A stretch of 64,000 bases of DNA from a virus. Location: IMG/VR virus record IMGVR_UViG_3300050158_000039, positions 28,621 through 92,620 of that record; one strand, 5' to 3'. Of this stretch, positions 8,793-8,912 are shown piece by piece. Each line of letters opens with the position of its first letter. Within the stretch, counting starts at the first letter, position 1. Position numbers and translations under genes: made by a program. Under the pieces are notes generated by a model. That model made no database searches, had not been told where the DNA came from, and saw only the letters and a program-made list of their open reading frames with translations.

Positions 8793-8912
8793 AACACGAG
8801 TCAAAACGAGAACAGGTTGATTACTGCGGGACTTGAACCCGCAAATGATCGAGTATGAGTCGATTGCTTTTACCAATTTAGCGAAGTAACTGTTCACCTA
8901 CGCAACGTGTTA
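8793..8912 (-). ncRNA. YrlA-like stalk RNA copy B containing a complete tRNA(CAT) body (8818-8891)
   Basis: The AGTTACT of the motif (8883-8906) is the 5' acceptor strand of a cloverleaf with ATCGA-CTCATAC-TCGAT; leader GAACAG can pair with trailer CTGTTC. Confidence 0.7.

What the first reader, a model, noticed from the sequence alone, without database searches (positions are those of the whole stretch)
8793..8912. A complete tRNA(CAT) nested on the stalk through its acceptor stem (copy B)
Seen: the conserved AGTTACT of the motif doubles as the 5' acceptor strand (pairing with AGTAATC). The leader GAACAG can pair with the trailer CTGTTC and AACACG with CGTGTT, which would bury both tRNA ends. 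Inference: a precursor whose release as a mature tRNA could be gated by stalk-binding protein, or a snapshot of how stalk RNAs arise by capturing whole tRNA genes.
Basis: partly seen in the sequence, partly recalled or inferred. Interest (0 to 1): 0.62.

Follow-up and report, generated by a model that had tools for sequence, protein, structure and literature searches.

The report
Phage Y-RNA mimic with anticodon arm
This giant-phage gene looks like a methionine/isoleucine tRNA, but it is most likely a one-piece Y-RNA-like molecule: three tRNA arms, with a real anticodon loop, mounted on a stalk that travels with the Ro60 protein. The anticodon changes freely between related phages, so it is probably a tRNA decoy or adaptor and not a tRNA waiting to be released.

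Summary
The tRNA-like body (8818-8891, minus strand; Rfam 56.9 bits) and both flank helices are present. But the leader helix and the acceptor stem compete for the same two bases (tRNA nt 1-2), pair 1:72 is A-C, and no CCA is encoded. I found 13 further RNAs in the same register, including the syntenic orthologue in a related phage. Stalk, D, anticodon and T stems covary (18 of 28 pairs with two-sided changes). Nt 1-2 pair with the stalk in 14/14; pair 1:72 fails in all 12 scorable rows. The 7-nt loop is kept in 14/14 but carries 11 different anticodons; the orthologue has lost CAT and U33. Four members lie 0.1-1 kb from a Ro60/TROVE gene; this 52%-complete record has none, but a complete colinear relative does. 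Best reading: a one-piece Y-RNA-like tRNA mimic in the D. radiodurans Yrn1 orientation, probably built from a tRNA-Ile2-like gene whose acceptor end was replaced by the stalk. Gated release of a mature tRNA is unlikely (about 10%). Expression and Ro60 binding are untested. The scan already noted this stalk family in this and other genomes; the acceptor-mounted subfamily with a free anticodon is what this report adds.

The parts
8793..8911 (-). Whole RNA gene (copy B): two-helix stalk plus tRNA-like head, about 119 nt
   Evidence: ends inferred from the terminal helix, not mapped
8906..8911 (-). Lower stalk helix, 5' strand (pairs with 8798-8793)
   Evidence: helix 1, 93.8% paired, 5/5 pairs with two-sided changes
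8898..8905 (-). Conserved internal-loop motif TTGCGTAG, candidate Ro60 site (CGUA in place of the CGAA of described Y RNAs)
   Evidence: homology to the GNCGAAG motif is inferred
8890..8895 (-). Upper stalk helix, 5' strand; its last two bases are also tRNA nt 1-2 (pairs with 8815-8810)
8883..8891 (-). Family motif AGTTACTTC = tRNA nt 1-9; nt 3-7 can pair with 8825-8821 as a shortened 5-bp acceptor helix
   Evidence: helix 3: 71.7% paired, no two-sided change
8866..8882 (-). D arm with A14, G18, G19
   Evidence: 3/3 pairs covary
8848..8864 (-). Anticodon arm: 5-bp stem, 7-nt loop, CAT at 8857-8855; tRNA-Ile2/Met-like
   Evidence: (95.7% paired, 5/5 covary)
8826..8842 (-). T arm with canonical T loop
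8816..8825 (-). 3' strand of the short acceptor helix (8825-8821) and 5-nt bulge (8820-8816) that holds would-be nt 71-75; no CCA
8810..8815 (-). Upper stalk helix, 3' strand
8799..8809 (-). Pyrimidine-rich 3' side of the internal loop, opposite the conserved motif
8793..8798 (-). Lower stalk helix, 3' strand
9515..9543 (-). Sigma-70-like promoter (11 of 12 consensus) that could drive the polycistron holding copies D, C, B and A
   Evidence: consensus match only (3 sites found, 3.4 expected by chance)
8715..8787 (-). Downstream tRNA-like gene, 5 nt after the stalk; RNase P cutting at its 5' end would free the 3' end of copy B
   Evidence: processing is inferred

Best explanation
Copy B is a one-piece Y-RNA-like RNA. 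Shown: its 5' and 3' ends form a conserved two-helix stalk; the head holds D, anticodon and T arms in normal tRNA order; the acceptor is cut down to at most 5 bp because nt 1-2 pair with the stalk; anticodon identity is not conserved. Inferred: it is cut out of a polycistronic transcript by processing of the neighbouring tRNAs; a phage Ro60 ring binds the stalk at the CGUA motif; the head folds into a tRNA elbow with an anticodon arm but has no free CCA end, so it is not charged or used in translation. It probably arose when a tRNA-Ile2-like gene lost its acceptor end to the stalk. Likeliest job (about 40% given this model): a Ro60-stabilised, unchargeable bait that competes for host enzymes recognising tRNA anticodon arms, such as defensive anticodon nucleases. 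Nearly as likely (about 35%): a nuclease-resistant tether linking Ro60 to PNPase or another effector, as shown for Yrn1 and for the Thermus phage phiLo RNAs.
For: Family structure on 14 homologues: 83.8% paired, 18 of 28 pairs with two-sided changes, 0/500 shuffles as high, slid registers 37-50%. Unconstrained RNAalifold gives the stalk, anticodon and T stems and no acceptor. Nt 1-2 pair with the stalk in 14/14; none has CCA; 7-nt loop in 14/14 with 11 anticodons, including CTA, TCA and ATG. The syntenic orthologue L169 has 6 two-sided changes yet differs at 6 of 7 loop bases. TROVE genes lie next to L185, L195, L089 and L174; the one at L195 matches phiLo Ro60 at E 2.8e-34 and Rsr at 9e-8. 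21 of 176 distinct motif loci hold a TROVE gene, 8-331 nt away on the same strand in the 12 measured. The complete colinear relative G005 has TROVE with a stalk RNA about 1.2 kb upstream. Yrn1 has this arm order (PMC4201824). A decoy role was proposed for YrlA in PMC7790460.
Against: No TROVE gene in this record (52% complete) or in the DNA held for the orthologue (12.7 kb). The motif reads CGUA, and an A-to-U change at that position weakened phiLo Ro60 binding about four-fold (PMC12135203). Rfam YrlA does not match copy B; sister copies score only 20-21 bits against a cut-off of 69. The 14 members were picked by eye from pattern hits that fixed both 5' motifs and the T loop, so the acceptor's 5' strand could not covary. 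No expression or binding data. A decoy role predicts bias towards nuclease-targeted anticodons; 14 sequences cannot test that.
Confidence: 0.72

Rival explanations
1. Dual-purpose precursor: the stalk buries both tRNA ends, and RNase P, 3' trimming and CCA addition release a working tRNA(CAT) when the stalk-binding protein lets go.
For: Six of seven acceptor pairs can form in copy B and in L170. All invariant tRNA bases are present. The genome encodes a CCA-adding-type enzyme and about 10 of 52 tRNA genes lack CCA, so a missing CCA is not decisive. M. smegmatis YrlA is cut by RNase P and gains CCA (PMC4201824). L167 holds a whole tRNA-Gly-like gene with encoded CCA inside the stalk loop. The phage's other two CAT genes are not clearly Ile2.
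Against: The orthologue has 4 contiguous acceptor pairs, C33 and no CAT. The 7-bp acceptor is 51.7% paired, and 1:72 is paired in 0 of 12 rows. The tRNA register is 4.1 kcal/mol worse. The TilS determinants C4-G69 and C5-G68 (PMC1635315) are replaced by T4-A69 and A5-T68. Chen et al. ascribe RNase P cleavage to a full 7-bp stem and saw none for Yrn1. Two CAT tRNAs with CCA lie in the same array.
Confidence: 0.1
2. The stalk RNA family is real and protein-bound, but the partner of this copy is not Ro60 (another phage protein or a host factor), so it is a parallel system and not a Y RNA.
For: No TROVE in this record. CGUA differs from the CGAA consensus. Nine of 13 other subfamily loci show no TROVE in the held DNA.
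Against: The motif sits within a few hundred bases of TROVE genes in many unrelated contigs and beside gp96 TROVE of cultured crAss001. Eight of the nine near-complete records tested carry TROVE; the exception (L001) has no stalk pairing. The motif-stem-YUAY layout follows the YrlA consensus.
Confidence: 0.1
3. A decaying relic: a tRNA gene recombined into a stalk RNA, and the head now drifts with no function beyond closing the stalk.
For: The anticodon is free and the orthologue's loop is non-canonical. The relatives G005, G002 and G006 lack copy B. Many stalk RNAs carry only a small hairpin.
Against: Anticodon stem 95.7% paired with 5/5 covarying pairs; D and T stems covary too. The loop is 7 nt in 14/14, with U33 in 12/14 and purine 37 in 13/14, none of which the search pattern required.
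Confidence: 0.08

Closest known systems
Deinococcus radiodurans Yrn1 (Chen et al. 2014, PMC4201824)
   Same: Ro60-binding stem formed by the RNA ends in the place of the acceptor stem; D-like, anticodon-like and T arms in normal tRNA order; encoded among tRNA genes.
   Different: Yrn1 has no full D arm and a 6-nt loop, and its stem resembles metazoan Y RNAs. Copy B has a canonical D arm, a 7-nt loop with U33 and A37, a residual 5-bp acceptor helix and a CGUA stalk. No sequence relationship to Yrn1 was tested.
YrlA Y RNAs (Rfam RF02553; PMC4201824; bioRxiv 10.1101/312249)
   Same: Terminal stalk with a GNCG-A-G-like motif, then a stem, then a YUAY-like stretch; linkage to TROVE genes; tRNA elbow. 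Copies C and D in this window and many homologues of this stalk have the YrlA arm order.
   Different: YrlA is circularly permuted (T arm, closed acceptor, D arm) and lacks an anticodon loop. Copy B is the reverse: the anticodon arm is whole and the acceptor end is absorbed into the stalk. No Rfam YrlA match.
Thermus phage phiLo Ro60 with Yrl1/Yrl2 (PMC12135203; PDB 9KOP, 9L5Y)
   Same: Phage-encoded Ro60 with neighbouring stem-bulge-stem RNAs; the best solved match to the TROVE protein beside subfamily member L195.
   Different: The phiLo RNAs carry CGAA and are described as hairpins, with no tRNA head reported in the passages read.
Phage tRNA-Ile2/Met(CAT) genes (e.g. Citrobacter phage Citrof4, Salmonella phage BRM 13313, Pseudomonas phage 16Q)
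   Same: D, anticodon and T arms 76-83% identical over 50-60 nt.
   Different: The acceptor stem is unrelated: no C4-G69 or C5-G68, no 1:72 pair, no CCA.

Membership tests
Bacterial/phage Y RNA (broad class) | Long stem formed by the 5' and 3' ends | tested here: met
   two covarying helices
Bacterial/phage Y RNA (broad class) | GNCGAAN0-1G motif near the 5' end | tested here: inconclusive
   Copy B reads TGCGTAG (2 differences); many homologues read GGCGTAG (1 difference); position and spacing match YrlA
Bacterial/phage Y RNA (broad class) | Encoded near, or with, a Ro60/TROVE gene | tested here: inconclusive
   Not in this 52%-complete record; met for 4 of 13 other subfamily members and for the complete relative G005
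Bacterial/phage Y RNA (broad class) | Bound by Ro60 | not testable with these tools
   needs EMSA or immunoprecipitation
YrlA (RF02553) | Permuted order: T arm, closed acceptor, D arm; no anticodon loop | tested here: not met
   order is D, anticodon, T
YrlA (RF02553) | Rfam score at or above 69 bits | tested here: not met
   no match for copy B
Yrn1-type Y RNA | Anticodon-position arm between D and T arms, Ro60 stem in the acceptor position | tested here: met
   (topology only)
Yrn1-type Y RNA | Metazoan-like Ro60 helix conserved on both strands; sequence homology to Yrn1 | not tested
   Yrn1 sequence not fetched
Functional tRNA(CAT) | Cloverleaf with invariant D- and T-loop bases, U8, Levitt pair | tested here: met
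   56.9 bits; A15:U48 read from the sequence
Functional tRNA(CAT) | 7-bp acceptor stem with free ends | tested here: not met
   A1-C72 mismatch; nt 1-2 prefer the stalk
Functional tRNA(CAT) | Anticodon conserved in orthologues | tested here: not met
   orthologue L169 differs at 6 of 7 loop bases
Functional tRNA(CAT) | Initiator marks (C1-A72, A11-U24, R29G30G31) or TilS determinants (C4-G69, C5-G68) | tested here: not met
   sequence against PMC1635315; these determinants are not universal
Functional tRNA(CAT) | CCA end (encoded or added) and aminoacylation | tested here: inconclusive
   not encoded, but a CCA-adding-type enzyme is in the genome; charging not testable

The most novel reading that the evidence does not exclude
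Phages make Ro60-anchored, unchargeable anticodon decoys. A tRNA's anticodon arm and elbow are mounted on a Ro60-binding stalk, and the anticodon is changed from lineage to lineage to match the tRNA that the host's defensive nucleases cut. One stalk accepts tRNA heads in at least four geometries (acceptor-mounted, anticodon-mounted, permuted at the acceptor, permuted at the D arm), so the YrlA and Yrn1 layouts would be interchangeable grafts and need not be independent inventions.
Probability: 0.3. Interest if true: 0.8.

Novelty: new variant of a known kind. Interest (0 to 1): 0.5.

Why it matters
What the tRNA-like domain of bacterial Y RNAs is for is an open question (PMC4201824). A role as competitor of anticodon nucleases has been suggested (PMC7790460), but YrlA has no anticodon loop. 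This subfamily has one, keeps its shape and changes its sequence, so the decoy idea can be tested directly with natural variants. It also shows the Yrn1 orientation, described so far from Deinococcus in the papers I read, on the same stalk and in the same genome as YrlA-type heads. In practice, tRNA finders call several of these genes tRNA-Met, Lys, Cys, Ile or Arg, which inflates counts of phage tRNAs.

Tried and rejected
Rfam at gathering and E-value thresholds: only tRNA; DUF2693 (E 8) and YrlA rejected for copy B. TROVE and RtcB searches of this record: none. Two early patterns were too strict or mis-spaced and gave 0 and 2 hits, neither kept as a member; one was too loose and gave mostly chance hits. 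The genome-contig scan gave only chance matches, so no bacterial member was found with this pattern. G002, G005 and G006 share sister copies but not copy B. No cultured phage holds a full-length match. The covariance model R1 found further stalk RNAs but no new member in the copy-B register among those inspected; scores of the sequences it was built from are circular and were not used as evidence. Three papers were not held. My automated stalk test missed some true stalks, so the Fisher value (p 5e-4) is only indicative. A T-CCA just after the stalk (8792-8789) is not conserved in homologues and was treated as chance. No complex prediction was sent, as the tool does not score RNA.

Full report
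Setting. The window is part of a 183-kb linear phage record, 52% complete, with 52 tRNA calls and a tmRNA and a GOLLD RNA. The finding lies on the minus strand in the tRNA array.

Observation. ARAGORN and Rfam both call a tRNA at 8818-8891 (56.9 bits). Two points were missed. The acceptor has an A1-C72 mismatch and a G2-U71 wobble, and no CCA follows. The last two bases of the leader helix are tRNA nt 1-2, so the full acceptor and the full leader helix exclude each other. With all else equal, the fold in which nt 1-2 pair with the trailer is 4.1 kcal/mol more stable, and the ensemble gives G2 a probability of 0.84 with the trailer against 0.02 with U71. On this one sequence the flank pairing is not significant (z -1.44; 444 of 5000 shuffles), so homologues were needed.

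What the stalk is. The motif TTGCGTAG, 5-7 nt, AGTTACTTC and its variants recur in the array. A scan of IMG/VR gave 22 loci. Nine of their records carry a TROVE/Ro60 gene above the Pfam cut-off, several with clusters of stalk RNAs directly beside it, some in the YrlA order. Over all pattern hits, 21 of 176 distinct loci hold a TROVE gene, 8-331 nt away on the same strand in the 12 measured. The protein beside L195 matches Thermus phage Ro60, Rsr and animal Ro60 structures. Cultured crAss001 has the same stalk beside gp96 TROVE. This record has no TROVE, but the complete relative G005, colinear with it around the array, has one with a stalk RNA just upstream. The layout parallels YrlA: motif, stem, then YUAY. 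The core reads CGUA, not CGAA, and that change weakened binding in the phiLo system (PMC12135203). Ro60 binding is therefore inferred from linkage, not shown.

The subfamily. A pattern asking for the stalk motif plus a T loop 34-56 nt later gave, after I removed chance hits by eye, 13 more RNAs built like copy B: motif as tRNA nt 1-9, then D arm, anticodon arm, T arm, and the stalk's 3' strand. On a plain MAFFT alignment the stalk-plus-three-arms structure is 83.8% paired with 18 of 28 pairs changed on both sides; slid registers give 37-50%. RNAalifold finds the stalk, anticodon and T stems unaided, and no acceptor. A 7-bp acceptor is 51.7% paired, and 1:72 fails in all 12 scorable rows. Nt 1-2 pair with the stalk in all 14, none has CCA, and what remains of the acceptor is 0-6 bp. 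Caveat: the pattern fixed the acceptor's 5' strand, so its lack of covariation is not informative; its failure to pair is. The anticodon loop was not constrained, yet it is 7 nt in 14/14, with U33 in 12 and purine 37 in 13. It carries 11 different triplets, three of which (CTA, TCA, ATG) are not ordinary bacterial sense anticodons (own knowledge). Four members lie about 0.1-1 kb from a TROVE gene (L185, L195, L089, L174).

The orthologue. L169 comes from a 252-kb contig with the same gene order, and its RNA aligns to copy B at 74%. Six pairs have changed on both sides (three in the lower stalk, one each in the upper stalk, anticodon stem and T stem). The loop differs at 6 of 7 bases and lacks U33, and the acceptor has only 4 contiguous pairs. 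What is conserved is the shape, not a tRNA(CAT).

Origin. The best matches of copy B's head among cultured phages are tRNA-Ile2/Met(CAT) genes, over the D, anticodon and T arms only; L170's are tRNA-Lys genes. These searches favour tRNAs that share the query's anticodon, so this is suggestive only. The acceptor of those tRNAs, with C4-G69 and C5-G68 (PMC1635315), is not in copy B. Other phages hold whole tRNA bodies in the stalk loop in other registers: fMet-like (L056), Tyr-like (L160), and Gly-like with encoded CCA (L167). Others have the stalk inserted in the D arm (L164, L204).

How it probably works. Shown: structure, loss of the acceptor end, free anticodon, linkage of the family to Ro60. 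Inferred: transcription from the promoter at 9543-9515; ends set by processing of flanking genes (a tRNA-like gene begins 5 nt downstream; in L169 the RNA abuts the upstream tRNA's CCA); Ro60 binding at the internal loop; a head that looks like a tRNA from elbow to anticodon and cannot be charged. I put 0.72 on this one-piece model. Within it I favour a decoy for anticodon-recognising host enzymes (about 40%), because the loop's form is kept while its sequence is not, over a PNPase tether or stabiliser (about 35%), which has direct precedent. The gated precursor keeps 0.1: six acceptor pairs can form, the phage has a CCA-adding-type enzyme, and M. smegmatis YrlA is processed by RNase P.

Comparison and novelty. 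It works like a Y RNA. It is not a YrlA (order and score fail). It shares the Yrn1 topology but has a full D arm and a canonical anticodon loop, which Yrn1 lacks. My paper searches found no description of this subfamily; two reviews were not held, so that is not proof. Earlier notes of this scan, read after I had formed my view, report this or similar stalk families with Ro60-like partners here and in other genomes. Verdict: new variant of a known kind, interest 0.5.

Noticed in passing
L167:1050-1182 (-): A complete tRNA-Gly(TCC)-like gene with a 7-bp acceptor and encoded A-CCA lies wholly inside the stalk loop. It is the literal 'whole tRNA in a stalk' case and the best candidate for a releasable tRNA.
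   Followed up: partly
L056:8956-9083 (+), L160:1477-1607 (-): fMet-like and Tyr-like tRNA bodies inside the stalk loop, each 0.1-0.3 kb from a TROVE gene.
   Followed up: partly
L164:850 (+), L204:2874 (+); G026:7479-7606 (-): Further geometries: tRNA permuted at the D arm with the stalk inserted there; D, anticodon (TTT) and T arms followed by a closed hairpin.
   Followed up: no
L265:3740-4330 (+) (crAss001, MH675552.1): Several unannotated stalk-motif RNAs directly downstream of gp96 TROVE in a cultured gut phage.
   Followed up: partly
window 8715-8787 (-): tRNA-like gene with a 6-nt anticodon loop and no CCA; the gene in the same position in L169 is called tRNA-Phe with CCA.
   Followed up: no
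window 8913-9060 (-): A degenerate stalk-like motif at 9051 and a tRNA-like element (about 8986-8913, called only at a relaxed ARAGORN threshold) that ends 1-2 nt before copy B.
   Followed up: no
window 8789-8792 (-): T-CCA follows the terminal stalk helix; not conserved in homologues.
   Followed up: yes
genome position 761 (-), outside the window: A further stalk-motif copy near the left end of the record, in a second tRNA cluster.
   Followed up: no
genome 5466-5834 (-), outside the window: CCA-adding/poly(A) polymerase family gene (PF01743, E 5e-20), also in G005 and G001.
   Followed up: no
window 27476-27910 (-), 53895-54245 (+), 25544-25619 (-): GOLLD RNA (218.8 bits), a permuted betaproteobacterial-type tmRNA, and a tRNA with a CTA anticodon.
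   Followed up: no
window 8137-8260 (-): The small ORF between copy A and tRNA-Gln matches Ralstonia jumbo phage RsoM2USA (73%), which also has a TROVE-like gene; a possible cultured relative, with no convincing stalk RNA found.
   Followed up: partly
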